A DNA stretch of 64,000 nucleotides from Bacilli bacterium (GTDB taxonomy: Bacteria; Bacillota_I; Bacilli_A; RF39; UBA660), in the NCBI GenBank assembly GCA_017435255.1, contig JAFSFI010000010.1, forward strand, positions 9,460 through 73,459. Direction: 5' to 3'. The notes under the pieces were generated by a model. That model had not been told where the DNA came from. It did not search any database and was given only the letters and a program-made list of their open reading frames with translations. The position numbers were made by a program, and so were the translations under genes. The number at the start of each line of letters is the position of its first letter. Within the stretch, counting starts at the first letter, position 1. Shown here in pieces: positions 1 to 40,489 of this stretch.

Positions 1-449
1 AAGCATTTATAGAATACCTGGAAAACAATATTGCTGAATTTGATAGTATTGAAGATGTAGTTATTGAAGAGGAAGATGCAGACTTAGAAGAAATAAACGA
101 TATTAAGAGGTTATTAACTATCAAAAGAGCAAAGCAAAAGGAAGTTATGAACTTGTTTATGGCAGAAAAGATAGATTATAACCAATTCAAATATATGAGT
201 GAAGAACTAGATAATATAATTCAAGCAAATGAAACTAGACTATCTCGTTTAGAGCAAGACTATACAAAGAAACCTGATATAAATAAAGCAGAGATTTCTA
301 GGTATATAGTTGACCATTGGAAACTTTTAACTGATAAGGAAAAACTAAACTTCTTAAATGAGTTCATAGAGAGTATAACAATAGTTAATCGTGATACTGA
401 TAGACAGAATGGCAAGGCGGAAATTTTGAGTGTAAAGTTCTACTGTTGA
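1..449 (+). CDS. large serine recombinase, C-terminal part (5' end lies upstream of the window)
   Basis: Frame 3 is open from base 3 to the TGA at 447-449; the ORF track starts it only at an internal Met (147). The acidic/coiled-coil tail ...HWKLLTDKEKLNFLNEFIESITIV... resembles C-terminal regions of phage/ICE large serine recombinases. Confidence 0.5.
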   Translation, partial: AFIEYLENNIAEFDSIEDVVIEEEDADLEEINDIKRLLTIKRAKQKEVMNLFMAEKIDYNQFKYMSEELDNIIQANETRLSRLEQDYTKKPDINKAEISRYIVDHWKLLTDKEKLNFLNEFIESITIVNRDTDRQNGKAEILSVKFYC

Positions 450-500
450 AGTGTTGTAAAACAGTGAAATTATGGTATAATTATATTAGGGAGTGATATA

Positions 501-992
501 ATGGATAGTCTAACAGAACAATGGAGATTGGAAAGTACTGAAATGGTAAGAAGAGCAGAAGAACAATTTGCTTCAACTTCTCCTAACAAGGTTTTTACAA
601 CAGTTGATAGTGTTGGTGCTATTAGCGCTTATGTTTTTGGAGAAGATGGTATTGTTAGTGTTGAACCATGTCATGATCATCAAACTGCGGGTAAGTTTGC
701 ATTAAGATTAATGTATCCAGAAGCGGATAAAATAAAAGCGGTATATGCACAAATGAATAATATTGATGTATCAGAAGTAAGAACAAATGATGAACATTTT
801 GTAGGGTTTGCTTTACATTTATTTGGTACAAAAGACAATGGTTGGGATGTAACACATGCTTCTTGGAATGGTACTTATAGTGGATACGAAGGAATTCTTT
901 ATGATAGCAAGCAAGAAGCAGTTAATGCATTATGGTCTGATGATGTGTTTGCCTGCAAACCAAATTATGGAAAAGATACTGCAAAGAAGTAA
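501..992 (+). CDS. hypothetical protein (probably cargo of the left-edge element)
   Basis: 163-aa ORF preceded by GGGAG about 7 nt upstream and followed directly by a terminator. Visibly less AT-rich than its surroundings. No recognisable motif. Confidence 0.5.
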   Translation: MDSLTEQWRLESTEMVRRAEEQFASTSPNKVFTTVDSVGAISAYVFGEDGIVSVEPCHDHQTAGKFALRLMYPEADKIKAVYAQMNNIDVSEVRTNDEHFVGFALHLFGTKDNGWDVTHASWNGTYSGYEGILYDSKQEAVNALWSDDVFACKPNYGKDTAKK

Positions 993-994
993 AA

Positions 995-1020
995 AAGATT
1001 GAAAAATCAATCTTTTTTTT
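995..1020. terminator. bidirectional rho-independent terminator
   Basis: Perfect 8-bp stem AAGATTGA/TCAATCTT with an AAAA loop, an A-run on the left and a T-run on the right. Confidence 0.6.
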
Positions 1021-1031
1021 GTTATGTTAAT

Positions 1032-1625
1032 TTAGTATATACTTTCTGCTAAATCATGAGTTACCATTATTACGGTTTTTCCCTCATTCCTAATTATCTT
1101 ATATACATCGTCTGATAGTGCTAATCTAGTTTGATAATCTAAAGCTGAGAAAGGTTCATCTAGTAGTAATATATCTGGATCTGTTGCTAACGTTCTAATC
1201 AGTGCCACTCTTTGCTTCATTCCACCAGATAATGAAGAAGGATATTTATCTATGAATTCTCCTAAACCGTACATATTCAACATCTCTATTACTCGGTTTC
1301 TTTTTTCTGGGGTTAGTTCTTTTGAAATTTCAAGGCCTATCAAACAGTTATCTAATATAGTTCTCCAAGGAAATAACGAATCACTTTGTAGCATATATCC
1401 AATTTTAACGTTATAGTTATCAAAAACTATTTTACCTGACGTAGATGTACTTAGGTTAGATAGAATAGATAGTAAGGAAGACTTCCCACAACCAGACGGC
1501 CCAACAATGGATAAAAATTCTTTGTCGTATATATCAAGATTAATATCCTTTATGGCTTCCATTTCTCCAGATAAGTCATGATATACTTTTTTAATGTGTT
1601 CTATTTTTAAAATGGTTTTGTTCAT
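1032..1625 (-). CDS. ABC transporter ATP-binding protein (NitT/TauT-type importer), C-terminally truncated
   Basis: Walker A GPSGCGKSS, Q-loop MLQ, signature LSGGMKQR, Walker B ILLLDEP and H-loop VTHD are present. The ORF stops at ...VTHDLAESIY*, just after the H-loop, where family members normally continue (..Y-L-S-D-R..) for roughly 50 more residues. Confidence 0.8.
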   Translation of the reverse strand: MNKTILKIEHIKKVYHDLSGEMEAIKDINLDIYDKEFLSIVGPSGCGKSSLLSILSNLSTSTSGKIVFDNYNVKIGYMLQSDSLFPWRTILDNCLIGLEISKELTPEKRNRVIEMLNMYGLGEFIDKYPSSLSGGMKQRVALIRTLATDPDILLLDEPFSALDYQTRLALSDDVYKIIRNEGKTVIMVTHDLAESIY

Positions 1626-1626
1626 T

Positions 1627-2400
1627 TTAATCCTTAATATATATTAATGAATTATAATCAACAGGTTCTTTAATAGCACCACTAGCTATCATAATTTTTT
1701 GTAAGTGATTAAATGATTCTTCAGTAAATGTAGTTGTCTTTGGCCAAGTATCTTGTTTTTTATAACGGTATACCGCATCAACTAAATCATTTAAAGCTGT
1801 ATCAGGGAAAAAGTCTAATATTGCTTCTGCTATTGCTTCACTATCATTGTTATGTACAAAATCTAGTCCTTTTTGTATTGCTTTAGTAAAGTTTTTTATT
1901 AATTCGGGGTTATTTTCTAAATAACTAATTCTTGCACTGTAAGATGTATATGGCACAATTCCTCCTAATTCTCCGATTGATGCCACCACATAACCATATC
2001 CCTGCTTTTCAATCTCCAAAGCTGTAGGTTCAAACAGTGTAACGAAATCCCCGACACCACCAATAAATGCTCCGCTCATAGCCGCAAATTCTATACTCGT
2101 ATCAATAGTTAAATCTTTTCTAGGATCAATTCCGGATTCTCTGAGAGCCCATTCAAAAGTCATTTCGGGCATCCCGGCTGCACGTCCGCCTACTACATAT
2201 TTACCTTTTAAATCTTCTAGAGTAAAGTCTTCTATTTTTTCTCTAGAGACTAAAAACGTTCCGTCTTTTTGAGTTAACTGAGCAAAAGTTTTGAGATAAT
2301 CTTTTTCGCCACCATTATAGACATAAATTGTAGCCTCACTTCCGCAAAAAGCAATATCCATATCACCTGAGAGAATTGCTGCTGTCACTTTGTCGGCACC
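1627..2400 (-). pseudogene. NitT/TauT-family ABC substrate-binding protein gene, 3' fragment of a split gene
   Basis: The reading frame extends upstream of the track's start to (TT)GADKVTAAILSGDMDIAFCGSEA... It is colinear and co-oriented with the N-terminal fragment at 5161-5383. The stop lies 1 nt from the ATPase start. Confidence 0.8.
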
Positions 2401-2402
2401 AG

Positions 2403-2421
2403 TGGTTAAAATTTAGTGATA
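2403..2421. repeat. left terminal inverted repeat of the mini-element (attP-arm-like)
   Basis: TGGTTAAAATTTAGTGATA matches the reverse complement of 5142-5160 (TGGTTCAAATTAAGTGATA) at 17 of 19 positions. Confidence 0.75.
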
Positions 2422-2426
2422 CCAAA

Positions 2427-2452
2427 ACAATTACATGATATAATGTAATTGT
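2427..2452. promoter_or_regulatory. perfect 10-bp inverted repeat overlapping a TATAAT box (candidate operator/promoter for the element cargo genes)
   Basis: ACAATTACAT-gatata-ATGTAATTGT, with TATAAT at 2439-2444, about 25 nt upstream of the acyltransferase start. Confidence 0.4.
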
Positions 2453-2468
2453 TGATTAGGAGGATATT

Positions 2469-3071
2469 ATGAAAATAGATGCAGTTTTATATAGAATTTT
2501 AAGACCAGTAATAAAAGGCTTGTTTATGTTTTTATATAGACCTAATATAATAGGAAAAGAAAATATACCTAAAAAAGGAGCTGTAGTTGTGTGCGGTAAT
2601 CATACGCACAATTGGGATTCTCCTTTATTGATGTGTAGTACAAAAAGAACAATTCACTTTTTAGCAAAGGATGAACTTTTTAAGGGAATAGGTAAATACT
2701 TCTTTAGTGGAATGGCCTGTATTCCGGTTAATCGAAGACAAAAAGATCGTAATGCGTTAGAGAGCGCAATTAAAGTATTAGAAGAAGATAAGTTGATAGG
2801 AATTTTTCCCGAAGGAACATTTAATAAAACAGATGATGTAATAATGCCCTTCAAATATGGAGCAGTTTCTATGGCGTATAAAACAAATAGTACAATAGTA
2901 CCTTTTTCAATCACAGGAAAGTACAAACTATTTAAAAAAAATAGCATTACAATTTGTTTTGGGAAACCATATAAAATAAAAACAGATGACTTAACTGATG
3001 CTAACAATGAATTAATGGAAAAAGTAAAAAAATTAATTATTAAAAATAGGAAAAGTGATAAACATGAATAA
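2469..3071 (+). CDS. 1-acyl-sn-glycerol-3-phosphate acyltransferase family protein (PlsC-like), element cargo
   Basis: HxxxxD acyltransferase motif (GNHTHNWDSP) and FPEGT motif. RBS AGGAGG upstream. Confidence 0.8.
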   Translation: MKIDAVLYRILRPVIKGLFMFLYRPNIIGKENIPKKGAVVVCGNHTHNWDSPLLMCSTKRTIHFLAKDELFKGIGKYFFSGMACIPVNRRQKDRNALESAIKVLEEDKLIGIFPEGTFNKTDDVIMPFKYGAVSMAYKTNSTIVPFSITGKYKLFKKNSITICFGKPYKIKTDDLTDANNELMEKVKKLIIKNRKSDKHE

Positions 3072-3933
3072 AATAATAGATGTTTTTAGAAAAATTGCGT
3101 GTTTATTTTTGTCAGTAATTTTGTTTTTTGTAATATGCTTTTATTTGATTTTGACCGCTGTTCCTAAAATAGTTGTCAAAGAGAATGTACAAATTTTATT
3201 AAAAGAAATTACTACAGAAACTTTAATTTACAATGGTCAAAACAGTTTTATTGAAGAACTAAATAGTGAAATAAAATATATCAATCCAGAAAAAGATTTG
3301 TTAAGTGGTATACTTAATAAAGACAATTTCAGAGAGATTATTTCTAACTATTATGCAGAAATGACAGAGGCTCTTCTTTATAATAAAAAGGAGCCAAAAC
3401 TTAATTCAAAAGAAATTATTAAAGTTATTAAAATAAATTTTGATGAGGTTGTATCTTCTTCTGGATTAGTTCTTTCCGTTGAGGAAAAAGAAAAAATAAT
3501 GGAATATATAAATGATAATGCAGATAGAATAATAGAAATGGTACCAACGGCTCCAGAATTGTTTGATAAAATTGGGCAAGATAATGTAGATGCATTAAGA
3601 AGTTTGGTTGGTCCTATGTTGAAGGTTGTTCTTATTATAATTATGTTAATAATAGTGGCGTTTATTGCATTAGTTAGTTGGTCTACTTATAAATTTGCAG
3701 CATGGAGTGGTGGAACCACAATAGTATCGGGGCTAACTATTATGGTCATGTCTTCGCTATTGTATGATATAGCAGTAAATTATACAAAGCTAATTATATC
3801 TTCATCGCTCAGAAATTTAATAGAAAATAATATTTTAAAAACTATAACAACAACAGGTACAATCGCAATTGTAATTGGTGCTATACAAATTTTGTATTAT
3901 TTTTTAATGAAAAAAAGAAATTTAAAGTATTAG
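3064..3933 (+). CDS. membrane protein, function unknown (element cargo)
   Basis: N-terminal TM helix and a C-terminal cluster of TM helices. The ATG at 3064 has better RBS spacing than the GTG at 3055. Confidence 0.55.
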   Translation: MNKIIDVFRKIACLFLSVILFFVICFYLILTAVPKIVVKENVQILLKEITTETLIYNGQNSFIEELNSEIKYINPEKDLLSGILNKDNFREIISNYYAEMTEALLYNKKEPKLNSKEIIKVIKINFDEVVSSSGLVLSVEEKEKIMEYINDNADRIIEMVPTAPELFDKIGQDNVDALRSLVGPMLKVVLIIIMLIIVAFIALVSWSTYKFAAWSGGTTIVSGLTIMVMSSLLYDIAVNYTKLIISSSLRNLIENNILKTITTTGTIAIVIGAIQILYYFLMKKRNLKY

Positions 3934-3952
3934 AATTCTAATACTTTTTTTT
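3925..3952 (+). terminator. rho-independent terminator
   Basis: Palindromic stem AAGTATTAGAA/TTCTAATACTT followed by a T-run. It overlaps the stop codon. Confidence 0.55.
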
Positions 3953-3980
3953 GCGCATATTTTTTATAGAGGTTGATAGC

Positions 3981-5141
3981 TTGAATAATGATTATAATGT
4001 TGGTGTCTATATTCGATTATCTAAAGAAGATTCAGATAAATCTTTAAATCGCGAAAGTGAAAGTATAAAAAACCAACGAAAATTGATTTATAATTACTTA
4101 AAAGAAAATAAATTAAATTTATATAAAGAATATGTTGATGATGGTTATACAGGAACCAATTTTGATAGGCCAGGATTTAATTCGTTGATAAAAGACATTC
4201 AAGATGGAAAAATTAATATGATAATTACAAAAGACTTATCAAGATTGGGTAGAGACTATATTAAAACAGGATATTATGTAGAGGAATATTTTCCGATGAA
4301 AAAAGTTCGATATGTCTCACTTTTAGACGGGGTTGATACATATAAAAATACCAATAATAATGATATAGCGCCTTTTAAAGCTTTATTTAATGATATGGTG
4401 TCCAAGGATACTTCAAAAAAAATCAAATCTATTTTGAAGACAAAAAAGGAACGCGGATTGTTTCTAGGAAGTAGAGCTCCTTATGGTTATAAAAAAGATC
4501 CATTAAACAAAAACAAATTAATAATAGATGAAAAGACATCTAAAATAGTTAAAAAAATATTTAAATTATCATTAGATGGTAAAAGTAATCAAGCTATAGC
4601 AGAACATTTAAATAAACAAGGAGTTTCTTCACCTAGTAATTCAGAATGGTCTTCCTCGAGTGTTTATAATATTCTAAATAATAAAGAATATACAGGATGT
4701 TTAGTAAGCAACGTATGGACCAGTATAAGTTATAAAAATAAAACTAGAATTAAAAGAAGTCAAAGCGAATGGATTATTATACATAATACACATGAAAAAA
4801 TTATAGATAAAAAAATATTTGATTTAATAAAAAAGAAGAAAAATCAAAAGAGAAAAAAGACCTTTAAAATGAAAGAAAATTTATTGTTAGACGGAAAAAT
4901 TTACTGTGAAGATTGTGGCAGTAAGATGGGGATTAGTTATTTAAAAAATAGAGGTTATTATGTATTAAATTGCAACAAATATAAGAAAAACGCTAAAAAA
5001 TGTTTTTCTCATTATATAAAATACAAAGATTTAGAAAATAGATTTTTAGAGTATATTGATACTAAAGAAAAATTGGAAGATTACAAAGTATACGTTAATT
5101 CAAACAGAAAATTAAGAATAGTACAAATAATTGACGAGTGA
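3981..5141 (+). CDS. serine recombinase (large-serine-recombinase type, short form)
   Basis: Resolvase catalytic domain (VGVYIRLSKED... with the catalytic Ser in RLS; ...ITKDLSRLGRD), a recombinase domain, and a Cys-rich zinc ribbon (CEDCGS...CNKYKKNAKKCFSH). The likely start is TTG at 3981, after an AGAGG RBS. Confidence 0.8.
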   Translation: MNNDYNVGVYIRLSKEDSDKSLNRESESIKNQRKLIYNYLKENKLNLYKEYVDDGYTGTNFDRPGFNSLIKDIQDGKINMIITKDLSRLGRDYIKTGYYVEEYFPMKKVRYVSLLDGVDTYKNTNNNDIAPFKALFNDMVSKDTSKKIKSILKTKKERGLFLGSRAPYGYKKDPLNKNKLIIDEKTSKIVKKIFKLSLDGKSNQAIAEHLNKQGVSSPSNSEWSSSSVYNILNNKEYTGCLVSNVWTSISYKNKTRIKRSQSEWIIIHNTHEKIIDKKIFDLIKKKKNQKRKKTFKMKENLLLDGKIYCEDCGSKMGISYLKNRGYYVLNCNKYKKNAKKCFSHYIKYKDLENRFLEYIDTKEKLEDYKVYVNSNRKLRIVQIIDE

Positions 5142-5160
5142 TATCACTTAATTTGAACCA
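5142..5160. repeat. right terminal inverted repeat of the mini-element
   Basis: TATCACTTAATTTGAACCA is the partner of 2403-2421. Confidence 0.75.
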
Positions 5161-5383
5161 CACCTGGTACTAAAGTGAGATCAATATCAATTCCATATTC
5201 TTCAAAATAACCATTTGCTATTGCAACATATTGTGGTGCATAAAAAATTGTATGTGCAACCTCCGCAACTTTGACTTTAGTAAGACCATTATCATCATCC
5301 TTTTTGAAAGAATTAAATAATATAGCTGATACACAAATAAAAATTATTATAATTGCTGCAATAGTAATTATTTTCTTTTTCAT
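5161..5383 (-). pseudogene. NitT/TauT-family ABC substrate-binding protein gene, 5' fragment of a split gene
   Basis: Signal/anchor peptide MKKKIITIAAIIIIFICVSA, then ...FYAPQYVAIANGYFEEYGIDIDLTLVPG. The frame then runs into element DNA (VVQIK*). RBS AGGAGG upstream. Confidence 0.8.
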
Positions 5384-5576
5384 AAAATCCTCCTTTTAAT
5401 AATTACACTTTATTATACGTATACTGTTAAAATTTGTTACGGAGAGAACCCATACAATATTATAGGTTATTGGTTTAATGGGAATAACTGTTTTTATAAA
5501 ATAGCCTCCCAATATTTAATAATTCTTTTTTTTGTTTTCAAAATAAGGTATAATTGATATAGAAAGTAGGTATAGA

Positions 5577-7670
5577 ATGAAAATAGACGATTTGAATAAA
5601 GAACAACAAAAGGCAGTATTAAAAACAGAGGGACCTACGCTTATTCTTGCAGGAGCAGGAAGTGGAAAAACCAGAGTTTTAACCACTAAAATAGCCTATT
5701 TGATAGAGGAAATAGGAATTAATCCGTATAATATTTTAGCTATAACTTTTACTAATAAAGCCGCGAAAGAAATGAATGATAGATTGTATCATATGATAGG
5801 TGATGTATCAAAAAAAATCCAGGTTTCTACATTTCATTCATTTGGTTTAAAGATACTAAGAGAAAATTGTAATGAATTAGGATATCAATCAAACTTTGTT
5901 ATCATGGATAGTGAAGACACTCTTAGCGTTATTAAAAAGATATTAAAAGGACTAAATTTAGATCCTAAACAATATAATCCTAGTGTTATAAGAAATAAGA
6001 TTAGTGGTTGTAAAAACGAACTTATGACACCTAATGATTATGAGAAATATGCAATAAGCGATTTTGAAGAGATAGTTTTAAAAGTATACAAAAAATACGA
6101 AGAAATGTTGTTTAAAAATAATGCTATAGATTTTGATGATTTATTAATTTTGCCGATTAAATTATTTAAAGAGAAACCAAGCATATTACAAAGATACCAG
6201 GAAAGATTTCAATACATACTAATAGATGAGTATCAAGATACAAACGAAGCTCAATATATTTTAACTAGAATGATTAGTTCTAAATATAAAAACATTTGCT
6301 GTGTAGGCGACAACGATCAATCAATATATAGTTTTAGAGGAGCTAATTATCGTAATATTTTAAATTTTGAAAAAGATTATAACGATGCAGAAGTTATAAT
6401 GTTAGAACAAAATTATAGGTCAACCTCTAATATTTTAGACGCTGCTAATAATGTAATAAAAAACAATAGAGAAAGAAAAGAGAAAAATCTTTGGTCTAAC
6501 AAAGGTGAAGGAGATAAAATATCTTACTTTAGAGCATTTAACGAAAGAGATGAAGCGTTGTATGTTGTTAGGGAAATAAAAAAACTTCTTAATAAAGGAA
6601 TCGAATATAAAGATGTGGCAGTATTATATAGAACTAATGCTCAGTCAAGAAATATGGAGGAAGAATTGTTAAAAGAAAATCTTCCATATCGTGTAGTAGG
6701 AAGTTTTTATTTCTATAGTAGAAAAGAGATTAAAGATTTAATCGCGTATTTACGATTAATTCATAATCAAAACGATAATGTGAGTTTACTAAGAGTTATT
6801 AATACTCCGAAACGAGGAATAGGATTAAAAACGATTGAAAACTTAACTAATAAAGCCGATATAAACGGAACAAGTATATTTGATTCAATAGAATCTGGTA
6901 AAGAGTTAGAATTTAAAAAATTAATTTTAGATTTGAAGAAGATTAGTGAAGAACTAACCTTAACTGAATTAGTAGATAAAATTCTAGATGTTACTGGTAT
7001 TAAAAAGGACTATGAAGACGAACATACTTTAGAAGCAGATGTTAGGATAGAAAACTTAGAGGAATTTAAAACTATTACTAAAACTTTTGAAGAAAGAGAA
7101 GGCGTGATTTCATTAGAGGATTTCTTGTTAGAAATTAGTTTAGTAAGTGATGTTAATGAATACAAAGATGACAAAAATCGTATTAGTTTAATGACAGTCC
7201 ATTCAGTAAAAGGATTAGAGTTCGATTATGTATTTGTAATTGGGTTAGAAGAAGGAATCTTCCCGCATATAAATTCGCTCATGGATAATGCTGAACTTGA
7301 AGAAGAAAGACGACTTTGTTATGTAGCTATTACTAGAGCTAAGGAAAAACTTCATATAGTAAATGCTAGAACCAGAACAATATATGGAAAAGAATCAAGT
7401 AACCCGCCAAGTAGATTTATTAAAGAAATAAATGATGATTTGTTGATTAAAGAATTTAAGGAGGATCCTGAAAACATACAAAAAATGGCAAAAGAGGAGT
7501 TTTTCTATAAAGAGGATATTGATTATAAAATAGGGGATTTTGTATATCATGAAGTATTTGGTCACGGAAAAATTGTAGAAGTGACAAACACACTTATTAG
7601 CATTGCATTTAAACATCCTCACGGAATAAAAAAATTAATGAAAAACCATAAAAGTATTAAAAAAATATAG
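5577..7670 (+). CDS. pcrA: ATP-dependent DNA helicase PcrA (UvrD family)
   Basis: LNKEQQKAV, Walker A AGAGSGKT, DEYQDTN and VHSVKGLEF motifs. Lies upstream of ligA, as in Bacilli. Confidence 0.92.
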   Translation: MKIDDLNKEQQKAVLKTEGPTLILAGAGSGKTRVLTTKIAYLIEEIGINPYNILAITFTNKAAKEMNDRLYHMIGDVSKKIQVSTFHSFGLKILRENCNELGYQSNFVIMDSEDTLSVIKKILKGLNLDPKQYNPSVIRNKISGCKNELMTPNDYEKYAISDFEEIVLKVYKKYEEMLFKNNAIDFDDLLILPIKLFKEKPSILQRYQERFQYILIDEYQDTNEAQYILTRMISSKYKNICCVGDNDQSIYSFRGANYRNILNFEKDYNDAEVIMLEQNYRSTSNILDAANNVIKNNRERKEKNLWSNKGEGDKISYFRAFNERDEALYVVREIKKLLNKGIEYKDVAVLYRTNAQSRNMEEELLKENLPYRVVGSFYFYSRKEIKDLIAYLRLIHNQNDNVSLLRVINTPKRGIGLKTIENLTNKADINGTSIFDSIESGKELEFKKLILDLKKISEELTLTELVDKILDVTGIKKDYEDEHTLEADVRIENLEEFKTITKTFEEREGVISLEDFLLEISLVSDVNEYKDDKNRISLMTVHSVKGLEFDYVFVIGLEEGIFPHINSLMDNAELEEERRLCYVAITRAKEKLHIVNARTRTIYGKESSNPPSRFIKEINDDLLIKEFKEDPENIQKMAKEEFFYKEDIDYKIGDFVYHEVFGHGKIVEVTNTLISIAFKHPHGIKKLMKNHKSIKKI

Positions 7671-8635: not shown

Positions 8636-10648
<2,013 letters not shown>

Positions 10649-35145: not shown

Positions 35146-35337
35146 AAAATTTTCGCTTGAATATAAAAAGAGAAACTAACGGAAGTTATAATATAAATAG
35201 AATTAGACTTAATTAAAAAGACATGAAATAGTTTTTTTATTATGCGTAAATAAAATTGGTTATATCATCCTTTTTATTTAGCTTTTTTTATAAAAAACAT
35301 TTTGATATGTTATAATTATATTAGGATAGTGGTATGT

Positions 35338-38145
35338 ATGAAGTATAAAAAATTATTAGAAGTATTTTTGATTGTTTTAATGTTTGTTATTATGATTGCA
35401 CTTATAGTTTGCACATCTGTGTTTAACAAATTTCAAAATAGTGGTAAGTTAATTATTAATGAGATTATGGCATCAAATAAAACCTCTATTAAAGATAAAA
35501 ACGGTAATTACTACGATTATATAGAACTATATAATGGGTATAATTATGATATTAATTTAGAAGGTTATTATTTATCTGATGATAACTATGAAACAAAAAA
35601 ATGGTCTTTCCCCGATATAACTATAAAATCAAAATCATATTTGGTAGTGTTTGCTTCTGGATTGAATTACTATGATAAAGATGAAATTCACACTAATTTC
35701 AAATTAAATACAAATGGTGAAGTTGTAACGCTATCCGATACAAACGCTAAAGCAATAAGCAAGATTTATTATTCAAATACTGCTAGTGATACAGCATACG
35801 GATATAACGGGAAAAAATATGTTTATTATTATTTGGGCAGTCCTAATAAATCAAACAGTGGAAGCTATTCAAAGGAACCAATTAATTTAGAAAATAGTAC
35901 AGAGGATATTAGAATAACAGAATATATGTTAGAAAATATAAGCGCTGTAAAAAGCAAAGATGGTTCGTATTATAGTGTTATAGAACTATATAACAATGAA
36001 AAACACGATATAAATCTAGAAGGTTATTTTTTAAGTGACAACATAGATAATATTACTAAATATACTTTTCCAAAAGTGACAATAAAAGCTAAATCTTATT
36101 TAGTTATATATGCGTCTTCGAAAGATACACATATAGATGGAGAACTTCATACCAATTTTGAATTAAATAATAAAGATAATATTTTAATTCTAAGTGATAA
36201 TCGAAAAAAACAAATAGATAAAGTTGATTTAAAAAATACAGGTGTTAATCTTTCATATGGATATTATAGTGACTCTTGGCAACTATATAGTACAAATACT
36301 TTTGGAGAAGAAAATAGCTCCAGTTATATTAAAAATATGAATGTCGCAAAATCTATTCAAATAAACGAAGTATCAGCGGTAGGAGTAGAAGGGGTTGAAC
36401 TGAAAAATTTAACGAATAATGATATTAATTTAAGTAATTATTCTATAGGAGATAAAAGTGGAACAATGACCAGTCTTCCTGACATAGTTTTAAAGGCCAA
36501 TTCCTTTATTACTCTTTATGGAAGTGATTATTATTCTTATCATAATGGAATAATCTATCTGGGGTTCCATATCAATAATAGTAATGAAGAAATTTACCTT
36601 TATAAGGATAACATTTTAATAGATTATTTTGAAGTAGGTAGAATGGTTAATGGTGGAAGTAGTGGTATAAATAATAAAAATGAAAAAGTGTATTATAAAA
36701 TGCCTACTTTTGGCAAAGAAAATAGTGCAGATTATTATTATGGTTATTCTAGTGAACCTAAATTTTCTATAAATGGTGGTTATGTTGAAAAAGGGACCAA
36801 AGTAACTCTTTCATCAGAAACCGGTAATAATATTTATTATACTTTGGATGGCTCTTTTCCTACTGTTAATTCTCAAAAGTACTCAGGACCTATTACTATA
36901 AATAAAACAACAGTAATTAAAGCAATTGCATATAAAGAAGGGAATATTGAGTCAGAAATTATTTCAAGAACATTTATTGTAGGGAGAAAACATGATGTAG
37001 CAATTGTATCGATTTCTACAAATGATTCTAACTTTTTTGGTGCAAATGGAATTTTAACTAATTACCAACAAGATACTACTAGAAAAATTAGTTTTGAATT
37101 TTATGAAAGAGATGGAAGTCTAGGTACTAGTTTTTTGGGAGATACTAAATTATCTGGAATGGATTCTAGGGAACAACCACAAAAGAGTATGACTATATAT
37201 TTAAGGAAACAATATGGAAAACAGGAAGTAACATATCCTTTCTTTGAAGATAGTGAAACCAATACTTATTCTTCCCTCTTGTTGCGTAACGCTGGTGAGG
37301 ACCCTAAAAGAATTCGCATTATGGATGCAGTGTTAACTAGAACATTGAAGGGTCAAATGGATATAGATATGCAAGATTATAGACCGGTAGTAGTTTATAT
37401 AAATGGTGTTTATTATGGCTTATATAATTTAAGAGATAAATTGAATGGCGACTATGTTCAAAGCAAGTATGGTATTAATAAAGATAATATTGATTTAATT
37501 AAATATACTACTGCTACAAAGGGTGATGTTACTGCCTATAACGATTTAATTAACTATGTTAGAAATAACGATCCTGCAAATAGTTACGCCTATGAATATT
37601 TAAAAACACAGATAGATATGCAGGAATTATGTAACTATTGGGTAGTTCAAACTTATTATGGTAATACTGATTTAGGAAACATTCGCTATTGGAGAGATAA
37701 AAATAATGGAAAATGGAGATATATGATATATGATTTAGATTGGTCCATGTGGAATAGTAATTTGAGTGTTGGATATACAACAAAGGATTCTGGCATTCCT
37801 GCGGCTACATATTTATCCTCTTCAATTTATTTAGTGAGAAGACTTTCCCGTAATAGTGAGTTTAGAGATATGTATTTAAAAACATTTGCATATCACTTAG
37901 AAAACACCTTTAATCCAATAAGAATGAATTCAATTGTAGATGAGCTTGCCAAAGAAATCGAAAGCGAAATGCCTTATCATATTCAAAGATGGGGATACCC
38001 ATCTAGTATTAATACCTGGTATTATAATCTTAATAGTTTTAAGAATATGATTAATGCAAGATATTACAAGGTTTTAAATAGACTAAAAGGTGATTTTGAT
38101 TTGTCTAATGAAGAATATAATTATTATTTTGGGGCGGTGAAGTAA
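35338..38145 (+). CDS. CotH-family atypical kinase with three lamin-tail (LTD) domains and a Fn3_assoc-like domain
   Basis: TM anchor. Three repeats of ...INEIM...YIELYN...L.GYYLSD...KW.FP...; the motif GNNIYYTLDGSFPT; and a CotH core LLLRNAGEDPKRIRIMDAV...VVVYINGVYYGLYNLRDK...YDLDWS. Confidence 0.8.
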   Translation: MKYKKLLEVFLIVLMFVIMIALIVCTSVFNKFQNSGKLIINEIMASNKTSIKDKNGNYYDYIELYNGYNYDINLEGYYLSDDNYETKKWSFPDITIKSKSYLVVFASGLNYYDKDEIHTNFKLNTNGEVVTLSDTNAKAISKIYYSNTASDTAYGYNGKKYVYYYLGSPNKSNSGSYSKEPINLENSTEDIRITEYMLENISAVKSKDGSYYSVIELYNNEKHDINLEGYFLSDNIDNITKYTFPKVTIKAKSYLVIYASSKDTHIDGELHTNFELNNKDNILILSDNRKKQIDKVDLKNTGVNLSYGYYSDSWQLYSTNTFGEENSSSYIKNMNVAKSIQINEVSAVGVEGVELKNLTNNDINLSNYSIGDKSGTMTSLPDIVLKANSFITLYGSDYYSYHNGIIYLGFHINNSNEEIYLYKDNILIDYFEVGRMVNGGSSGINNKNEKVYYKMPTFGKENSADYYYGYSSEPKFSINGGYVEKGTKVTLSSETGNNIYYTLDGSFPTVNSQKYSGPITINKTTVIKAIAYKEGNIESEIISRTFIVGRKHDVAIVSISTNDSNFFGANGILTNYQQDTTRKISFEFYERDGSLGTSFLGDTKLSGMDSREQPQKSMTIYLRKQYGKQEVTYPFFEDSETNTYSSLLLRNAGEDPKRIRIMDAVLTRTLKGQMDIDMQDYRPVVVYINGVYYGLYNLRDKLNGDYVQSKYGINKDNIDLIKYTTATKGDVTAYNDLINYVRNNDPANSYAYEYLKTQIDMQELCNYWVVQTYYGNTDLGNIRYWRDKNNGKWRYMIYDLDWSMWNSNLSVGYTTKDSGIPAATYLSSSIYLVRRLSRNSEFRDMYLKTFAYHLENTFNPIRMNSIVDELAKEIESEMPYHIQRWGYPSSINTWYYNLNSFKNMINARYYKVLNRLKGDFDLSNEEYNYYFGAVK

Positions 38146-38146
38146 T

Positions 38147-39154
38147 ATGAAAAAAATATTTATGATCATATGCTTATTTGTACTAGTCATATTACTTTTA
38201 GAATTTTTTCCTAATTTAAAAGGAGAATATATTATGACCGACAAACTATATATCAGTGAAATGATGGCAAGTAACTACGCAACTATAAAAGATGATGATG
38301 GAGATTATAGTGATTATATAGAAATATATAATGGATATAATAATTCGATTAGTTTGAAAAATTATTATTTGTCTGACTCTGAATTTGAAACAAATAAATG
38401 GTCATTTCCAGATATAGAAATTCAGGGCCATGAATATTTGATTGTTTATGCATCTGGAAAAGACAAATGTGATTTAGAAAGCAGGATTTGTCACACCAAT
38501 TTCAAATTAAGTAGCAAAGGTGAAGTCTTAACTTTGACAGATAATAATGGAAACATTATCAGCAAAATTACTTATCCAAAAATGGATACTGATGTATCAT
38601 TTAGTTATAAAGATAGACAATACATTCTTTTTAACGATGGAACCCCAGGAAAAAAGAATAAAGGAGAAAAATTCAAAACATCAAATATTGATTATAGTAA
38701 GATAAAAATAAATGAATATATGACTGATAATAAAAGAAGTTATTATGATTTATACGGAAATTATTTCGACTGGGTAGAGTTATACAATGATTCAGAGCAA
38801 GACATTACATTAAAAAATATGTTTATAACTGATAATGAATCTAACCTAAAAAAGTTCAAAATAAAGGAAACTATAATTTCTAAAAAAGGATATTTAATAG
38901 TACATATGCCAGGAAAAAAAGTGGGTTTTGATGAAGGTATATATACTGATTTTGGTTTATCTAGTGATGATAAAAAAATAATTATATCTGATGGAAAAAA
39001 GATAATAGATGAAGTAGAAATAGTCGAATTAAAACAGGATGTTAGTTATGGTAAGAAAAACGATAGATGGCAATACTTTACTACACCAACACCTGGATAT
39101 GAAAATAATACATCATCTTTTGATGGTATAGGAGGAAAAAATGGGAACGCTTAA
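38147..39154 (+). CDS. lamin-tail-domain (LTD) protein, two repeats
   Basis: TM/signal, then two LTD repeats paralogous to those in the upstream gene. Confidence 0.7.
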   Translation: MKKIFMIICLFVLVILLLEFFPNLKGEYIMTDKLYISEMMASNYATIKDDDGDYSDYIEIYNGYNNSISLKNYYLSDSEFETNKWSFPDIEIQGHEYLIVYASGKDKCDLESRICHTNFKLSSKGEVLTLTDNNGNIISKITYPKMDTDVSFSYKDRQYILFNDGTPGKKNKGEKFKTSNIDYSKIKINEYMTDNKRSYYDLYGNYFDWVELYNDSEQDITLKNMFITDNESNLKKFKIKETIISKKGYLIVHMPGKKVGFDEGIYTDFGLSSDDKKIIISDGKKIIDEVEIVELKQDVSYGKKNDRWQYFTTPTPGYENNTSSFDGIGGKNGNA

Positions 39155-39815
39155 AACATTTAGACATGAGTACAAGTATGTATTGCCATATGGTGAAATG
39201 CTTTCTCTTAGGACTAAATTCAACGAGTTATTGGAAATTGATAGATCTTATGATGGATATATGATTAGAAGCTTATATTTTGATTCAGTAAATGATGATG
39301 ATTACTATGATAAATTAGGTGGAGAATTAGAAAGAAAAAAAATTAGATTAAGAATATATGAACCTGATGGAGAACTTGTGAAATTAGAATTAAAAGCTAA
39401 GCATGATTATCACCAGTTAAAAGAATCATTAATAATAAATAAAGAAGATGCTAAGGAATTAATTAAAGGCAATTATGGATCGCTATTAAATTATAAAGAT
39501 GATTTGGCAAATAGATTATATGTCATAATGATGAAAGGCTATTATAGACCTAAAGTTATTATAGAGTATCAAAGAATAGCGTATAAAACAAATACAACAA
39601 CTAGAATAACTTTAGATTTCAATATAAAAAAAAGTAATGATTATGATTCGTTTTTTAACAAAAATATAAATTATGTAGGAATTACTGATGCGAAGGACAT
39701 AGTATTAGAAGTAAAATTTGATAGATTTTTAGAACCGTATATATCAAACTTTTTGGGAAAATATATGTCTAGATGTCAATCGATAAGCAAATATGTAATG
39801 GCTAGAAACATATAG
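39141..39815 (+). CDS. VTC-domain (polyphosphate-polymerase-like, CYTH-related) protein
   Basis: FRHEYKYVL...IRSLYFDS...ERKKIRLRIYE...VKLELKAK pattern of the VTC domain. Confidence 0.75.
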   Translation: MGTLKTFRHEYKYVLPYGEMLSLRTKFNELLEIDRSYDGYMIRSLYFDSVNDDDYYDKLGGELERKKIRLRIYEPDGELVKLELKAKHDYHQLKESLIINKEDAKELIKGNYGSLLNYKDDLANRLYVIMMKGYYRPKVIIEYQRIAYKTNTTTRITLDFNIKKSNDYDSFFNKNINYVGITDAKDIVLEVKFDRFLEPYISNFLGKYMSRCQSISKYVMARNI

Positions 39816-39826
39816 GAGGAGTAAAA

Positions 39827-40489
39827 ATGAAAAAAATATTAGAAGCATTAGCGGCAATGCAGGTAAAAATGCCAATACAAACAGTATTATTAATTTTATT
39901 AATCGCTTTTATAATATCATTAATAATATATATTACGTATAAATATACGTATTCAGGGGTTATGTACAATCCTAGATTTAATGTATCACTTATTATGATA
40001 ACAATGATTACAACAATAGTAATGGTAGTAATCGGAAGTAATATTTCAGTATCACTAGGTATGGTTGGTGCTTTATCGACAATTAGATTTAGGACAGCGG
40101 TAAAAGATCCAAGAGATACGGCATTTATTTTTTGGGGAGTAGTATCTGGACTTGCTTGTGGTACACAAAACTATACAATTGTTATAGCGGGTTCAATAGT
40201 AATTTGTTTAATATTATTTATATTTAAGAAGGCAGTTTCGAAGGATAGTAGATATGTCTTAATCATAAAGGGGGCCAAATTAAATTTATCTAGTGTTGAA
40301 AAAGTATTGAATAGCTGTTTAAAAGGGTATATTTGTAAAGGAAAATATATAAATATAGATAATATTGAATTAGTGTATGATGTTAAGTTTATTAAAAAAA
40401 TGAATAATAAAGTAATTGATGAATTATCTAAAGTTGAAGGCGTTAAGACAATTAATTTTGTTGCTAGTAATACTGACACTATGGGATAA
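39827..40489 (+). CDS. DUF4956-family membrane protein
   Basis: ...GALSTIRFRTAVKDPRDTAFIFWGVVSGLACG... signature. Confidence 0.75.
   Translation: MKKILEALAAMQVKMPIQTVLLILLIAFIISLIIYITYKYTYSGVMYNPRFNVSLIMITMITTIVMVVIGSNISVSLGMVGALSTIRFRTAVKDPRDTAFIFWGVVSGLACGTQNYTIVIAGSIVICLILFIFKKAVSKDSRYVLIIKGAKLNLSSVEKVLNSCLKGYICKGKYINIDNIELVYDVKFIKKMNNKVIDELSKVEGVKTINFVASNTDTMG

What the first reader, a model, noticed from the sequence alone, without database searches (positions are those of the whole stretch)
2397..5164. A 2.76-kb serine-recombinase mini-element splits an ABC binding-protein gene; precise excision would rebuild the ORF in frame
Split gene: on the minus strand, 5383..5161 encodes the signal peptide and N-terminal part of a NitT/TauT-type binding protein (...IDLTLVPG), and 2400..1627 encodes the rest (GADKVTAAILSGDMDIAFCG...). 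Insert: the intervening DNA carries a PlsC-like acyltransferase, a membrane protein and a 386-aa serine recombinase whose stop lies 20 nt from the right junction. Junctions: both share CACC, and the element ends are 19-nt inverted repeats (17 of 19 identical). The host flanks form their own imperfect palindrome (CACTTT at 2386-2391, AAAGTG at 5172-5177). In the reconstructed attP-like and attB-like sites the centre of symmetry falls on the same CC dinucleotide of the CACC core, which is the geometry expected for a serine-integrase 2-bp crossover. Excision product: removing the element plus one core copy gives TTA GTA CCA GGT GCC GAC AAA GTG, which reads LVPGADKV in frame. Interpretation: the genome looks like an endospore former (CotD-like, Cse60-like, CotH). 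The insert could therefore be a reversible gene switch like the skin/SPbeta-type intervening elements or active lysogeny, reduced to a recombinase plus two cargo genes. It could also be a simple insertional knockout.
Basis: partly seen in the sequence, partly recalled or inferred. Interest (0 to 1): 0.8.

Follow-up and report, generated by a model that had tools for sequence, protein, structure and literature searches.

The report
Old recombinase insert splitting a transporter gene
A 2.8-kb DNA insert with its own cut-and-paste enzyme splits a nutrient-transporter gene in several related uncultured gut bacteria, and both gene halves and the enzyme have stayed intact, which suggests the cell still cuts the insert out to rebuild the gene.

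Summary
Removing window 2401-5164 rebuilds a 330-aa NMT1/SsuA-type binding-protein gene that aligns gap-free with intact orthologues.

It is not a fresh insertion. The same split, at the same Gly codon, occurs in at least five diverged lineages. The recombinase, acyltransferase and host genes show equal synonymous divergence and congruent trees. Both gene halves evolve at dN/dS 0.03-0.2, like intact copies, and the recombinase at about 0.15. By contrast, a second serine-recombinase element in the neighbouring ATPase gene is 94-97% identical in DNA across distant hosts, so it is truly mobile.

The 386-aa recombinase belongs to the TnpX/TndX clade and lacks the coiled-coil motif that sets integrase directionality. 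This motif was lost at least five times in the family. Two more coiled-coil-less relatives sit at the same codon with different cargo: a germinant-receptor operon and an M23 peptidase. Relatives encode SigG, SigK and YabG.

Best reading: a vertically inherited, immobilised intervening element that is cut out without a directionality factor to restore the gene, probably in a terminal cell such as the sporulating mother cell. Excision itself is unproven. No empty-site or circle junction was found in assemblies.

The parts
1627..2400 (-). 3' part of the NMT1/SsuA-type substrate-binding protein gene (codons 74/75-330 plus stop)
   Evidence: Pfam NMT1, profile positions 33-216. Aligns gap-free with intact orthologues after joining. 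dN/dS is 0.025-0.08 between split lineages.
2375..2424 (.). attL: host half-site, CACC core (2397-2400; inferred crossover CC at 2399-2400) and left arm of the element (GTGGTTAAAATTTAGTGATAC)
   Evidence: Junction defined by blastn against the intact locus L006. The arm is conserved in L007 and L010 and recognisable in L011, L055, L036, L102 and L105. The inverted repeat exceeds chance.
2416..2444 (+). Promoter-like site for the acyltransferase operon (GTGATA-17-TGaTATAAT). Its -35 hexamer is the outer motif of the attL arm.
   Evidence: One of five sites tied at the top score, 10 of 12 hexamer matches. The extended -10 TGnTATAAT is conserved in six lineages.
2469..3071 (+). 200-aa PlsC-like acyltransferase (cargo)
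   Evidence: PF01553 E=1e-28. TIGR00530 scores 92 bits, below the cut-off of 103. 72-90% identical to orthologues inside and outside the element. Its tree is congruent with the host tree.
3064..3933 (+). 289-aa membrane protein, overlapping the acyltransferase gene (cargo, fast evolving)
   Evidence: No Pfam or NCBIfam family. 26-69% identity among lineages, dN/dS 0.26-0.76. Always paired with the acyltransferase, also in element-free loci.
3924..3952 (+). Hairpin plus T-run (terminator-like) between the membrane-protein gene and the recombinase gene
   Evidence: Free energy -8.8 to -12.5 kcal/mol, z -3.2 to -5.2. Conserved, with changes in both stem arms between the window and L011 (read by eye, not counted).
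3955..3964 (+). Invariant motif GCATATTTT(T) just upstream of the recombinase ribosome-binding site
   Evidence: Identical in the window, L007, L010, L011 and L055 although dS is 0.8 or more. Function unknown. The CATA core resembles mother-cell sigma -10 boxes, but the spacing to any -35 element does not fit (PMC3789822).
3981..5141 (+). 386-aa large serine recombinase without the coiled-coil motif (TTG start)
   Evidence: Resolvase, Recombinase and Zn_ribbon domains. Catalytic domain closest to TnpX, E=7e-28, and to TndX at 40%. R12, S14, R63, R88 and R91 invariant in 64 homologues. 0 residues in the coiled-coil region against 64-113 in longer homologues. AlphaFold2 model (pLDDT 82) has no coiled coil and matches the SPbeta, phiC31, Bxb1 and LI integrases. 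dN/dS 0.13-0.23.
5139..5188 (.). attR: right arm of the element (TGATATCACTTAATTTGAACCACA), CACC core (5161-5164; crossover CC at 5163-5164) and host half-site
5161..5383 (-). 5' part of the binding-protein gene (codons 1-74: N-terminal membrane anchor plus first beta-alpha unit)
   Evidence: Pfam NMT1, profile positions 5-25. Intact in all seven split lineages examined. dN/dS 0.10-0.33, against 0.18-0.21 between intact lineages.
5412..5440 (-). Housekeeping-type promoter-like site of the binding-protein operon (GTAACA-17-TATAAT). It reads through the 5' half and then antisense into the recombinase gene.
   Evidence: Tied top-scoring site, 10 of 12 hexamer matches. The TATAAT is retained at the orthologous position in L006, L007 and L008.
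1..1043 (+). Right end of a second, unrelated serine-recombinase element that splits the ATPase gene of the same operon at codon 196/197 (complete copy: L001 3146-7063)
   Evidence: Its 510-aa recombinase is 96-98% identical, and its core DNA 94-97% identical, in hosts whose binding proteins are only 64-83% identical to the window's.
1044..1625 (-). 5' part (codons 1-196) of the ABC ATPase gene
   Evidence: PF00005. The 3' part lies beyond the second element in L001, and joining them restores ...DLAEAISLSDR....

Best explanation
This is a gene-intervening element that has become a fixed, vertically inherited part of the chromosome in a clade of uncultured gut Bacilli. Relatives of these bacteria carry sporulation genes.

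Proposed mechanism. The recombinase binds the two imperfect inverted-repeat arms at attL and attR. It cuts at the shared CC dinucleotide, which is the complement of the GG of the invariant Gly74 codon. It releases a 2.76-kb circle and leaves an uninterrupted binding-protein gene behind its own housekeeping-type promoter. Because the enzyme has lost the coiled-coil motif, it should need no directionality factor for attL x attR recombination. For the same reason it should be poor at reintegration between separate DNA molecules.

Consequences. Excision is effectively one-way. The element survives only in cells that do not excise it. The population pattern (element fixed, interrupted gene under full purifying selection, no empty-site strains) fits excision in cells that leave no descendants. 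The sporulating mother cell is the most likely such cell.

Shown here: the anatomy, the conservation, the selection, the co-divergence with the host, the loss of the coiled coil, and one natural scar-free restoration.

Inferred: that excision still happens, that it is independent of a directionality factor, and when it happens.
For: (1) The same split at the same codon, with the same gene order, occurs in L007, L010, L011, L055 and, as far as its contig reaches, L036. Their recombinases are 80, 73-74, 69 and 63% identical to the window's (L036 ends before the recombinase gene).

(2) Synonymous divergence of element genes equals that of host genes. For window versus L007: rec 0.83, PlsC 0.88, membrane protein 0.68; PcrA 0.88, LigA 0.89, SBP-C 0.70, ATPase 0.91. 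Recombinase, PlsC and host trees are congruent.

(3) Between split lineages, dN/dS of SBP-C is 0.025-0.08, with no stop codon or frameshift in any lineage representative compared (L008, a second strain of the L007 species, is the exception). PcrA gives 0.03-0.06 and intact-intact SBP pairs 0.07-0.085.

(4) The recombinase is under purifying selection (0.13-0.23). The att arms are about 85% identical between the window and L007, where neutral sites are about 50%.

(5) L006 is sister to split L010 (bootstrap 88-97%) and nested among split lineages. It has an intact, scar-free gene.

(6) Internal control: the ATPase-inserted element in the same operon is 94-97% identical in DNA across hosts whose flanking DNA is 78-84% identical. 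A truly mobile element therefore looks different.

(7) The coiled coil is absent. It was lost at least five times in the family tree. Two of the other coiled-coil-less lineages (L102, L105) sit at the same Gly codon with the same CC crossover, intact halves and different cargo.

(8) An engineered coiled-coil deletion of the LI integrase excises attL x attR without a directionality factor and integrates poorly (PMC3783163 section 13; PMC5499577 section 17). TnpX-type enzymes need no directionality factor (PMC5704250).

(9) Relatives encode SigG and SigK above the NCBIfam cut-offs, plus YabG and SpoVG. The L105 element carries a germinant-receptor operon.
Against: There is no direct sign of excision.
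- No intact allele more than 85% identical exists among 5.8 billion protein clusters.
- The empty-site and circle-junction patterns gave 0 hits in JGI metagenome contigs. Rare or terminal excision would not be assembled, so this is weak evidence either way.
- The L010 recombinase has a premature TGA at codon 240.
- L008 carries a nonsense cluster and a frameshift in the two gene halves. The system is therefore decaying, or mis-assembled, in some strains.
- The interrupted gene is not a known sporulation gene and has a housekeeping-type promoter.
- No mother-cell sigma promoter could be assigned to the recombinase gene.
- In the window's own genome a second element also splits the ATPase gene, so rebuilding the transporter needs two excisions.
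- The window itself contains no sporulation gene.
- dS is saturated beyond the window-L007 pair.
Confidence: 0.55

Rival explanations
1. The element is maintained and excises, but in growing cells rather than during sporulation. A low constitutive level of recombinase, from read-through of the leaky terminator, removes the element in a small fraction of cells. These cells gain the transporter and lose the cargo. They form a short-lived subpopulation that cannot persist or transmit, because the cargo is needed later (acyltransferase pair, M23 peptidase, germinant receptor).
For: The binding-protein promoter is housekeeping-type. The recombinase gene sits behind a terminator in the acyltransferase operon with no separate recognisable promoter. 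Cargo in L105 (Ger receptor) and L102 (M23 peptidase, weak SpoIIQ similarity) would matter for spore formation or germination rather than for growth. A coiled-coil-less enzyme is expected to be weakly active on attL x attR at all times.
Against: Viable excised lineages should appear as empty-site strains, and none is assembled. One-way loss in dividing cells is hard to reconcile with fixation of the element over dS of 0.8 or more, unless excised cells are always dead ends.
Confidence: 0.2
2. This is an ordinary insertional knockout by a site-specific mobile element. Related elements have entered the same conserved attB independently in each species. The halves look intact because each insertion is recent, or because element-free members of each species keep the gene under selection.
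For: Large serine recombinases are site-specific, so a shared site alone does not prove shared ancestry. The operon is a hotspot: 24 of 89 loci have the ATPase gene interrupted at codons ~141, ~163 or ~197. Recombinases at 52-54% identity occupy the same site in hosts whose PcrA is only about 60% identical, which is more similar than strict co-divergence predicts. Some strains show decay.
Against: Element and host dS values are equal, and the trees are congruent. The exact recombinase occurs in 8 contigs, always at this site. No empty site was found for these species. There is no mobilisation gene. No relative above 46% identity was found in IMG/VR and none above 41% in the phage and plasmid collections. 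The truly mobile neighbour element behaves differently.
Confidence: 0.12
3. This is an immobilised relic that no longer excises. The recombinase is kept for another role, such as binding the attL arm that overlaps the -35 of the acyltransferase promoter and so regulating the cargo operon. The transporter gene is dead or dying.
For: The outer attL motif GTGATA is the -35 hexamer of the cargo promoter. L010 and L008 carry lesions. The ATPase gene is also interrupted in the window. Loss of the coiled coil could be simple degeneration.
Against: A dead gene would not keep dN/dS at 0.03-0.08 over dS 0.7-1.4, with no stop in any of the seven split lineage representatives examined (L008, a second strain of one of them, is the exception). 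A pure DNA-binding role would not keep the catalytic Ser and Arg residues invariant. The attR arm, which lies near no promoter, is conserved as well. L006 shows that precise restoration has happened.
Confidence: 0.1

Closest known systems
skin element in sigK with SpoIVCA/CisA (Bacillus subtilis, Clostridioides difficile), and SPbeta in spsM with SprA/SprB
   Same: A large serine recombinase encoded inside an element that interrupts a coding sequence. Precise excision at a short shared core rebuilds the gene. The recombinase and target gene are conserved across species while the cargo varies. The element is inherited through the germ line. The hosts belong to spore-forming Firmicutes. (Background: PMC5595907, PMC4191935 and PMC5025042, listed.)
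   Different: Those elements are 14-134 kb prophage remnants, interrupt mother-cell sporulation genes and need a directionality factor (SprB, or the skinCd factor). Here the element is 2.3-5 kb, the target is an ABC importer binding protein with a housekeeping-type promoter, no directionality-factor candidate exists and the recombinase lacks the coiled coil. Excision is not demonstrated.
gin element in gerE of Bacillus cereus (GirC plus GirX)
   Same: A non-phage gene-intervening element with a serine recombinase. Its att site has inverted repeats around a short core inside the coding sequence (PMC5595907).
   Different: gin has 31 genes and three recombinases, needs the directionality factor GirX, is identical between strains (recent horizontal transfer) and splits a sporulation regulator. 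The present element has three genes, co-diverges with its host and has no directionality factor.
Tn4451/Tn4453 and Tn5397 (TnpX, TndX large resolvases)
   Same: These are the closest characterised recombinases: TnpX catalytic domain E=7e-28 and TndX 40% identity over 82% of the protein. They are small non-phage elements that excise as circles, and the recombinase alone suffices for excision (PMC5704250; references listed).
   Different: Those are mobile, carry Mob or conjugation functions, use a GA crossover and insert at many sites. Their enzymes are 533-707 aa (lengths from memory, not checked here). Here the crossover is CC, there is a single site and no transfer genes, inheritance is vertical, and the enzyme is 386 aa without a coiled coil.
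Engineered coiled-coil deletion of the Listeria innocua (LI/A118-type) integrase
   Same: The domain make-up is the same as in the natural protein here: catalytic domain, recombinase domain and zinc ribbon without the coiled coil. The mutant excises attL x attR in E. coli without a directionality factor and is inefficient at intermolecular attP x attB recombination (PMC3783163; PMC5499577).
   Different: It is a laboratory construct from a distant integrase (about 20% identity by Foldseek). Its in vitro activity is low and promiscuous. Whether the natural short enzymes behave alike is untested.
fdxN element with XisF in heterocystous cyanobacteria
   Same: A serine-recombinase intervening element that is excised in a terminally differentiated cell to rebuild a gene. 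The XisF model of NCBIfam is among the best hits (96 bits, below the cut-off of 375).
   Different: A different phylum and cell type, a 55-kb element, and accessory factors XisH and XisI are required (established knowledge, not tested here).

Membership tests
Large serine recombinases (LSR) | N-terminal resolvase catalytic domain with a Ser nucleophile and conserved Arg residues | tested here: met
   PF00239 E=1e-19. YIRLS14 aligns with the TnpX active-site segment. R12, S14, R63, R88 and R91 are invariant in 64 homologues.
Large serine recombinases (LSR) | Recombinase domain followed by a zinc-ribbon domain with four Cys | tested here: met
   PF07508 and PF13408. C309, C312 and C341 are invariant and C331 nearly invariant. 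AlphaFold2 model with pLDDT above 85 in these domains. Foldseek probability 1.0 to the SPbeta, phiC31, Bxb1 and LI integrases.
Large serine recombinases (LSR) | Coiled-coil motif inserted in the zinc-ribbon domain (controls directionality; the region directionality factors act on) | tested here: not met
   0 residues in the region, where homologues have 64-113. The model goes from helix 348-358 straight to the terminal beta hairpin 368-382.
Large serine recombinases (LSR) | att sites made of imperfect inverted-repeat half-sites around a central 2-bp crossover shared by attL and attR | tested here: met
   attP 20/24 and attB 13/24 symmetric about the same CC. The repeat exceeds chance. The same CC is used in L102 and L105. 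Cleavage position is inferred, not measured.
Sporulation-type gene-intervening elements (skin, SPbeta, vfbin, gin) | The element interrupts a coding sequence, and precise excision restores a functional ORF | tested here: met
   In silico join. Gap-free alignment with intact orthologues. Natural scar-free intact gene in L006, nested among split lineages.
Sporulation-type gene-intervening elements (skin, SPbeta, vfbin, gin) | Same target gene and recombinase conserved across species, with variable cargo | tested here: met
   Seven split lineages. Cargo is PlsC plus membrane protein, or an M23 peptidase, or GerA/C/B.
Sporulation-type gene-intervening elements (skin, SPbeta, vfbin, gin) | A recombination directionality factor is required for excision | tested here: not met
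   The non-coding gaps in the element are 68, 47 and 23 nt, so there is no spare ORF. A 27-33-aa leader ORF exists only in L011 and L055. The motif that directionality factors act on is absent.
Sporulation-type gene-intervening elements (skin, SPbeta, vfbin, gin) | The interrupted gene is a mother-cell sporulation gene | tested here: not met
   It is an NMT1/SsuA/TauA-like ABC binding protein of unknown substrate with a housekeeping-type promoter.
Sporulation-type gene-intervening elements (skin, SPbeta, vfbin, gin) | The host forms endospores | tested here: inconclusive
   Relatives have SigG (380 bits against a cut-off of 372), SigK (308 against 252), YabG (299 against 270), SpoVG and Ger(x)C. 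RF39-type Bacilli are predicted to sporulate (PMC10868615). The window itself has no diagnostic gene.
Sporulation-type gene-intervening elements (skin, SPbeta, vfbin, gin) | Excision confined to the terminally differentiated mother cell | not testable with these tools
   This needs reads, PCR or cultures. The assembly-level searches were negative.
Tn4451/Tn5397-type transposons (TnpX/TndX) | Recombinase of the TnpX/TndX clade | tested here: met
   Best PDB match is TnpX. Best annotated plasmid hits are tndX, at 40% identity.
Tn4451/Tn5397-type transposons (TnpX/TndX) | GA crossover dinucleotide | tested here: not met
   The shared core is CACC with CC at its centre. GA is listed for Tn4451 in PMC5704250.
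Tn4451/Tn5397-type transposons (TnpX/TndX) | Mobilisation or conjugation genes and horizontal spread to several sites | tested here: not met
   No Mob or oriT-type gene. A single site in 8 contigs. Co-divergence with the host.
Active lysogeny / phage regulatory switch (comK-type) | The element is a prophage that excises and reintegrates without lysis | tested here: not met
   No phage gene in the element. Closest IMG/VR relatives reach 46% identity at most, and none is flanked by the binding-protein gene. Reversibility itself cannot be tested here.

The most novel reading that the evidence does not exclude
Loss of the coiled-coil motif is a recurrent signature of serine-integrase domestication. 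Mobile elements that settle inside a useful gene are converted, again and again, into excision-only intervening sequences that need no directionality factor. In this order of gut spore-formers, one three-gene ABC importer operon is subject to such programmed DNA removal at up to four sites. The dividing or germ-line genome and the terminal-cell genome would then differ, as in skin/sigK, but outside the sporulation regulon and with a new class of natural short recombinases.
Probability: 0.35. Interest if true: 0.85.

Novelty: new variant of a known kind. Interest (0 to 1): 0.72.

Why it matters
If excision is confirmed, four things follow.

1. Programmed gene reconstitution by intervening elements would extend beyond the handful of sporulation and heterocyst genes known so far. 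It would reach a nutrient importer in abundant, uncultured gut Bacilli.

2. It would provide natural large serine recombinases that lack the coiled coil. About one in ten related clusters is this short. The directionality model built on LI, phiC31 and SPbeta integrases predicts that such enzymes excise without a cofactor and integrate poorly. These proteins are a ready-made natural test of that model, and compact candidates for excision-only tools.

3. The pair of elements in one operon is a clean comparison for how a mobile element becomes a host feature. One element co-diverges with its host. The other is nearly identical across hosts.

4. For genome annotation, the two 'pseudogene' halves should not be read as loss of the transporter.

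Tried and rejected
- Empty-site and circle-junction patterns in JGI metagenome contigs gave 0 hits each. This says little about rare events.
- No riboswitch lies upstream of the binding-protein gene that could name the substrate. NCBIfam and PDB profile searches give only below-cut-off SsuA, TauA, SaoX and THI5-type similarity.
- The four small ORFs after the membrane-protein gene in L006 are not recombinase remnants (tblastn; Pfam).
- Genetic code 4 was rejected as an explanation for the in-frame TGA in L010. No other gene on that contig has an in-frame TGA, and the window uses TGA as a stop in 3 of 59 ORFs. One of the two TGAs is simply the natural stop inside the attR motif.
- The invariant GCATATTTT motif could not be assigned to a SigE or SigK promoter, because the spacing to an ATA or AC element is 11-12 nt rather than 16-18.
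- No att-arm remnants were found next to the relocated acyltransferase pair in L100, L098, L096 or L006. L094 keeps only a terminator plus GCGGCATAAATT.
- CotH was rejected as a sporulation marker. It is a domain of a 947-aa surface protein in a VTC/DUF4956 cluster.
- IMG/VR scans with single proteins P0139 and P0163 found nothing. The profile scan found only distant phage relatives, none next to the binding-protein gene.
- Inversion or double inversion as the origin of the gene order was rejected. The orientations of the two gene halves fit only excision followed by reinsertion.

Full report
**1. The observation**

On the minus strand, window 5383..5161 encodes the first 74 codons of an NMT1/SsuA-type ABC substrate-binding protein. 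This part comprises the N-terminal membrane anchor and the start of the fold. Window 2400..1627 encodes the rest.

Both junctions carry CACC (2397-2400 and 5161-5164). Deleting 2401-5164 (2764 bp) gives a 330-aa ORF. This ORF aligns without a gap to fourteen orthologue sequences, twelve of them full-length intact proteins of 328-331 aa. The junction lies in the invariant stretch G74-A75-D76-K77-V78-T79.

The insert carries three genes:
- a PF01553 acyltransferase (2469-3071);
- an overlapping 289-aa membrane protein with no known family (3064-3933);
- a 386-aa Resolvase+Recombinase+Zn_ribbon protein (3981-5141).

The terminal repeat matches 18 of 20 bases, against 0.02 matches expected by chance. 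The rebuilt attP is 20/24 symmetric about a CC dinucleotide, and the rebuilt attB is 13/24 symmetric about the same CC.

**2. It is not a recent insertion**

The exact recombinase occurs on 8 metagenome contigs, always in this arrangement. A homologue search found a family of short (384-414 aa) recombinases at 62-80% identity.

The three whose contigs I fetched (L007, L010, L011) show the same architecture: SBP 3' half, then acyltransferase, membrane protein and recombinase, then SBP 5' half, then pcrA. So do two species representatives from the genome collection. L055 shows all of it. L036 shows it as far as its contig reaches, ending inside the membrane-protein gene.

Most other relatives have pcrA directly next to an intact binding-protein gene.

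**3. Co-divergence and selection**

Nei-Gojobori estimates give the same synonymous divergence for element and host genes. For window versus L007:

| Gene | dS |
|---|---|
| rec | 0.83 |
| PlsC | 0.88 |
| membrane protein | 0.68 |
| PcrA | 0.88 |
| LigA | 0.89 |
| SBP-C | 0.70 |
| ATPase | 0.91 |

- Neighbour-joining trees of PcrA+LigA, of the recombinase and of PlsC are congruent.
- Between split lineages, the 3' half of the gene has dN/dS 0.025-0.08 and the 5' half 0.10-0.33. These values match intact-intact pairs (0.07-0.085 and 0.18-0.21) and PcrA (0.03-0.06).
- No lineage representative compared has a stop codon or frameshift in either half.
- The recombinase evolves at 0.13-0.23.
- The att arms are about 85% identical between the window and L007, where neutral sites are about 50% identical.
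- A gene that had been dead since the common ancestor of these lineages could not look like this.

**4. An internal control**

The window begins inside a second serine-recombinase element, which splits the ATPase gene of the same operon at codon 196/197. The complete copy is in L001, and joining its flanks restores ...DLAEAISLSDR....

Its 510-aa recombinase, which has a full coiled coil, is 96-98% identical in L087 and L096. Its core DNA is 94-97% identical there, while the flanking host DNA is 78-84% identical and the hosts' binding proteins are only 64-83% identical to the window's.

That is what a currently mobile element looks like. The binding-protein element does not look like that.

**5. 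Natural restoration**

L006 is sister to split L010 (bootstrap 88-97%) and lies inside a clade whose other members are split. It has an intact, scar-free gene.

L012 and L013 are also intact. L013 is sister to split L055 (69-97%).

Precise removal of the element has therefore happened in evolution. In each case the acyltransferase plus membrane-protein pair was kept elsewhere:
- between the binding-protein gene and pcrA in L006 and L096;
- in an ileS...serS locus in L100 (the same assembly as L013) and in L098;
- near murC in L094.

The PlsC tree follows the host tree. The so-called cargo is thus a vertically inherited host gene pair whose location changes. How it moves is unexplained.

**6. 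The recombinase**

- Its catalytic domain is closest to TnpX (E=7e-28). The best annotated relatives are tndX genes at 40% identity.
- The catalytic Ser and Arg residues and the zinc-ribbon cysteines are invariant or nearly so.
- Compared with homologues of 445-542 aa, it lacks the whole coiled-coil segment: 0 residues against 64-113.
- An AlphaFold2 model (pLDDT 82) runs from helix 348-358 straight into the terminal beta hairpin. It matches solved large serine integrases.
- In the LI integrase, deleting this motif allows attL x attR excision in E. coli without a directionality factor and makes intermolecular attP x attB recombination inefficient (PMC3783163 section 13; PMC5499577 section 17).
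- TnpX-type enzymes work without such a factor in any case (PMC5704250).
- The element has no room for a further gene. Its non-coding gaps are 68, 47 and 23 nt.

I infer an excision-competent, cofactor-independent enzyme that integrates poorly. This fits the immobility described in section 3.

**7. A recurrent pattern**

In a tree of 64 family members, coiled-coil-less forms appear in at least five separate places. Several have coiled-coil-bearing sisters; P0175 with P0163, for example, has 98% bootstrap support.

I could fetch two of the other short lineages:
- P0175 (L102-L104, 52% identity). The element is 2.3 kb and carries an M23 peptidase.
- P0155 (L105, 54% identity). The element is 5.0 kb and carries a GerA / Ger(x)C / germination-permease operon.

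Both sit at the same Gly codon (...ILTAG|GADKV and ...ILTSG|GADKV) with the same CC crossover and intact gene halves.

In a different recombinase family, L014 has a 1.9-kb element that splits the ATPase gene at codon 197. It holds only a 372-aa recombinase, which ends about 45 residues after its last cysteine cluster, plus a PAP2 protein.

About 14 of the 150 nearest 50%-identity clusters are 430 aa or shorter. I found no paper that describes natural coiled-coil-less large serine recombinases or an intervening element in an ABC transporter gene.

**8. Regulation and host**

- The acyltransferase operon has a conserved extended -10 element. Its -35 hexamer, GTGATA, is the outer motif of the attL arm.
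- A conserved hairpin plus T-run separates the membrane-protein gene from the recombinase gene.
- This is followed by an invariant GCATATTTT motif and a ribosome-binding site.
- I could not assign a sigma factor to it.
- L011 and L055 have an extra 27-33-aa leader ORF that overlaps the recombinase start codon.
- The binding-protein promoter is housekeeping-type, and no riboswitch is present.
- The hosts are uncultured gut Bacilli, deposited under names such as 'Tenericutes', 'Clostridium sp. CAG:710' and 'Mycoplasma sp. CAG:877'.
- Relatives encode SigG, an uninterrupted SigK, YabG, SpoVG, SpoIIIAH and germinant receptors. RF39-type Bacilli are predicted to sporulate (PMC10868615).
- The window itself has no diagnostic sporulation gene, and its CotH hit is a surface-protein domain.

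**9. Interpretation**

The pattern has four parts: the element is fixed, the interrupted gene is under full purifying selection, the recombinase and att sites are conserved, and no empty-site strains are seen. This is the pattern of skin/sigK and of the cyanobacterial nif elements, where excision occurs in cells that leave no descendants.

I therefore favour a maintained intervening element that excises one-way and without a cofactor, most likely in the mother cell (overall confidence 0.55). Stochastic excision in growing cells is the main alternative for timing (0.2).

A plain knockout by repeated site-specific insertion (0.12) and a non-excising relic (0.1) fit the selection and co-divergence data poorly.

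**10. Caveats**

- Excision is not demonstrated. No intact allele above 85% identity exists in the protein collection, and neither junction pattern occurs in JGI contigs.
- The L010 recombinase has a premature TGA.
- L008 is 99.93% identical to L007 over 8.3 kb. It differs at only six positions, all inside the two gene halves and all inactivating. This could be real decay or an assembly artefact.
- In the window's genome the ATPase gene is also split, so a working transporter needs two excisions.
- dS is saturated beyond the closest pair.
- The trees are neighbour-joining trees on a few genes.
- The deep relationship between the three groups of elements that occupy the binding-protein site could reflect ancient residence or repeated colonisation.

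Noticed in passing
window 1-1043 (complete copy: L001 3146-7063): A second serine-recombinase element splits the ATPase gene of the same operon at codon 196/197. It carries a 510-aa recombinase with a coiled coil, a ClpP-like protease and ORFs of 90, 106, 45 and 163 aa. Its core is 94-97% identical in DNA in L096 and L087, whose hosts are much more divergent, so it is currently mobile. Its cargo differs between hosts; L096 has an acetyltransferase, APH, DUF4145 and peptidase S51.
   Followed up: yes
loci L005-L105 (ATPase gene next to the binding-protein gene): The ATPase gene of this operon is interrupted in 24 of 89 loci. Most breaks are at codon ~141, others at ~160-167 and ~194-197, and a serine recombinase is often found in the insert. 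With the binding-protein site, that makes at least four integration sites in one three-gene operon.
   Followed up: partly
L014 11583-13447: A 1.9-kb mini-element splits the ATPase gene at codon 197. It holds only a 372-aa serine recombinase, which ends about 45 residues after its last cysteine cluster (apparently no coiled coil), and a 208-aa PAP2-family membrane protein. This is a second, unrelated case of a short recombinase with lipid-related cargo.
   Followed up: partly
L008 versus L007 (L007 coordinates 6357-6362 and 9350-9355): Two contigs that are 99.93% identical over 8.3 kb differ at only six positions, in two tight clusters. Both clusters lie inside the split gene and both are inactivating: GGT AGT GAA becomes GTT AAT TAA, and a 2-nt loss creates a poly-A frameshift. 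This is either targeted decay or an assembly artefact.
   Followed up: partly
L010 8001-9176: The recombinase gene has one premature TGA at codon 240, where the other family members have Cys. The source annotation translated the contig with code 4, but no other gene on the contig has an in-frame TGA. None of the 22 genes on the contig ends in TGA.
   Followed up: yes
L094 8001-9445; L098 8001-9463; L100 4574-6036; L006 and L096: The acyltransferase plus membrane-protein pair is inherited vertically but lies at four different chromosomal places in close relatives. L094 keeps a terminator plus GCGGCATAAATT after the pair. This resembles the motif that precedes the recombinase gene in the window.
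   Followed up: partly
L011 about 6485-6570; the corresponding region of L055: A 27-33-aa ORF (...EEYGD...) lies between the conserved GCATATTTT motif and the recombinase gene, and its stop overlaps the recombinase start (ATGA). It is absent from the window, L007 and L010. It could be a leader peptide or a small cofactor.
   Followed up: no
L105 8272-11965; L102 8185-9006: At the same binding-protein site, the cargo in other lineages is a complete germinant-receptor operon (GerXA-like, Ger(x)C, germination permease) or an M23 peptidase with weak SpoIIQ similarity. These genes matter for spores rather than for growth.
   Followed up: partly
window 35302-40489: A cluster made of a 947-aa LTD / CHB_HEX_C / Fn3-associated / CotH-kinase protein, a second LTD protein, a VTC-domain protein and a DUF4956 protein. 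The CotH domain here is not a spore-coat marker.
   Followed up: partly
window 45777-45957 and 56905-57087: Two T-box leaders. One lies upstream of the small ORF that precedes leuS. The other lies upstream of the deoC-like gene and tyrS.
   Followed up: no
window 59581-61722: A VirD4/TraG-type coupling protein (432 aa) is followed by an ADP-ribosyltransferase exoenzyme-like protein (256 aa), wedged between tyrS and rpsD. This may be a remnant of a conjugative element.
   Followed up: no
L094 11692-13555: A diversity-generating retroelement (bAvd-like gene plus reverse transcriptase) lies just downstream of the relocated acyltransferase pair, next to an uninterrupted sigK.
   Followed up: no
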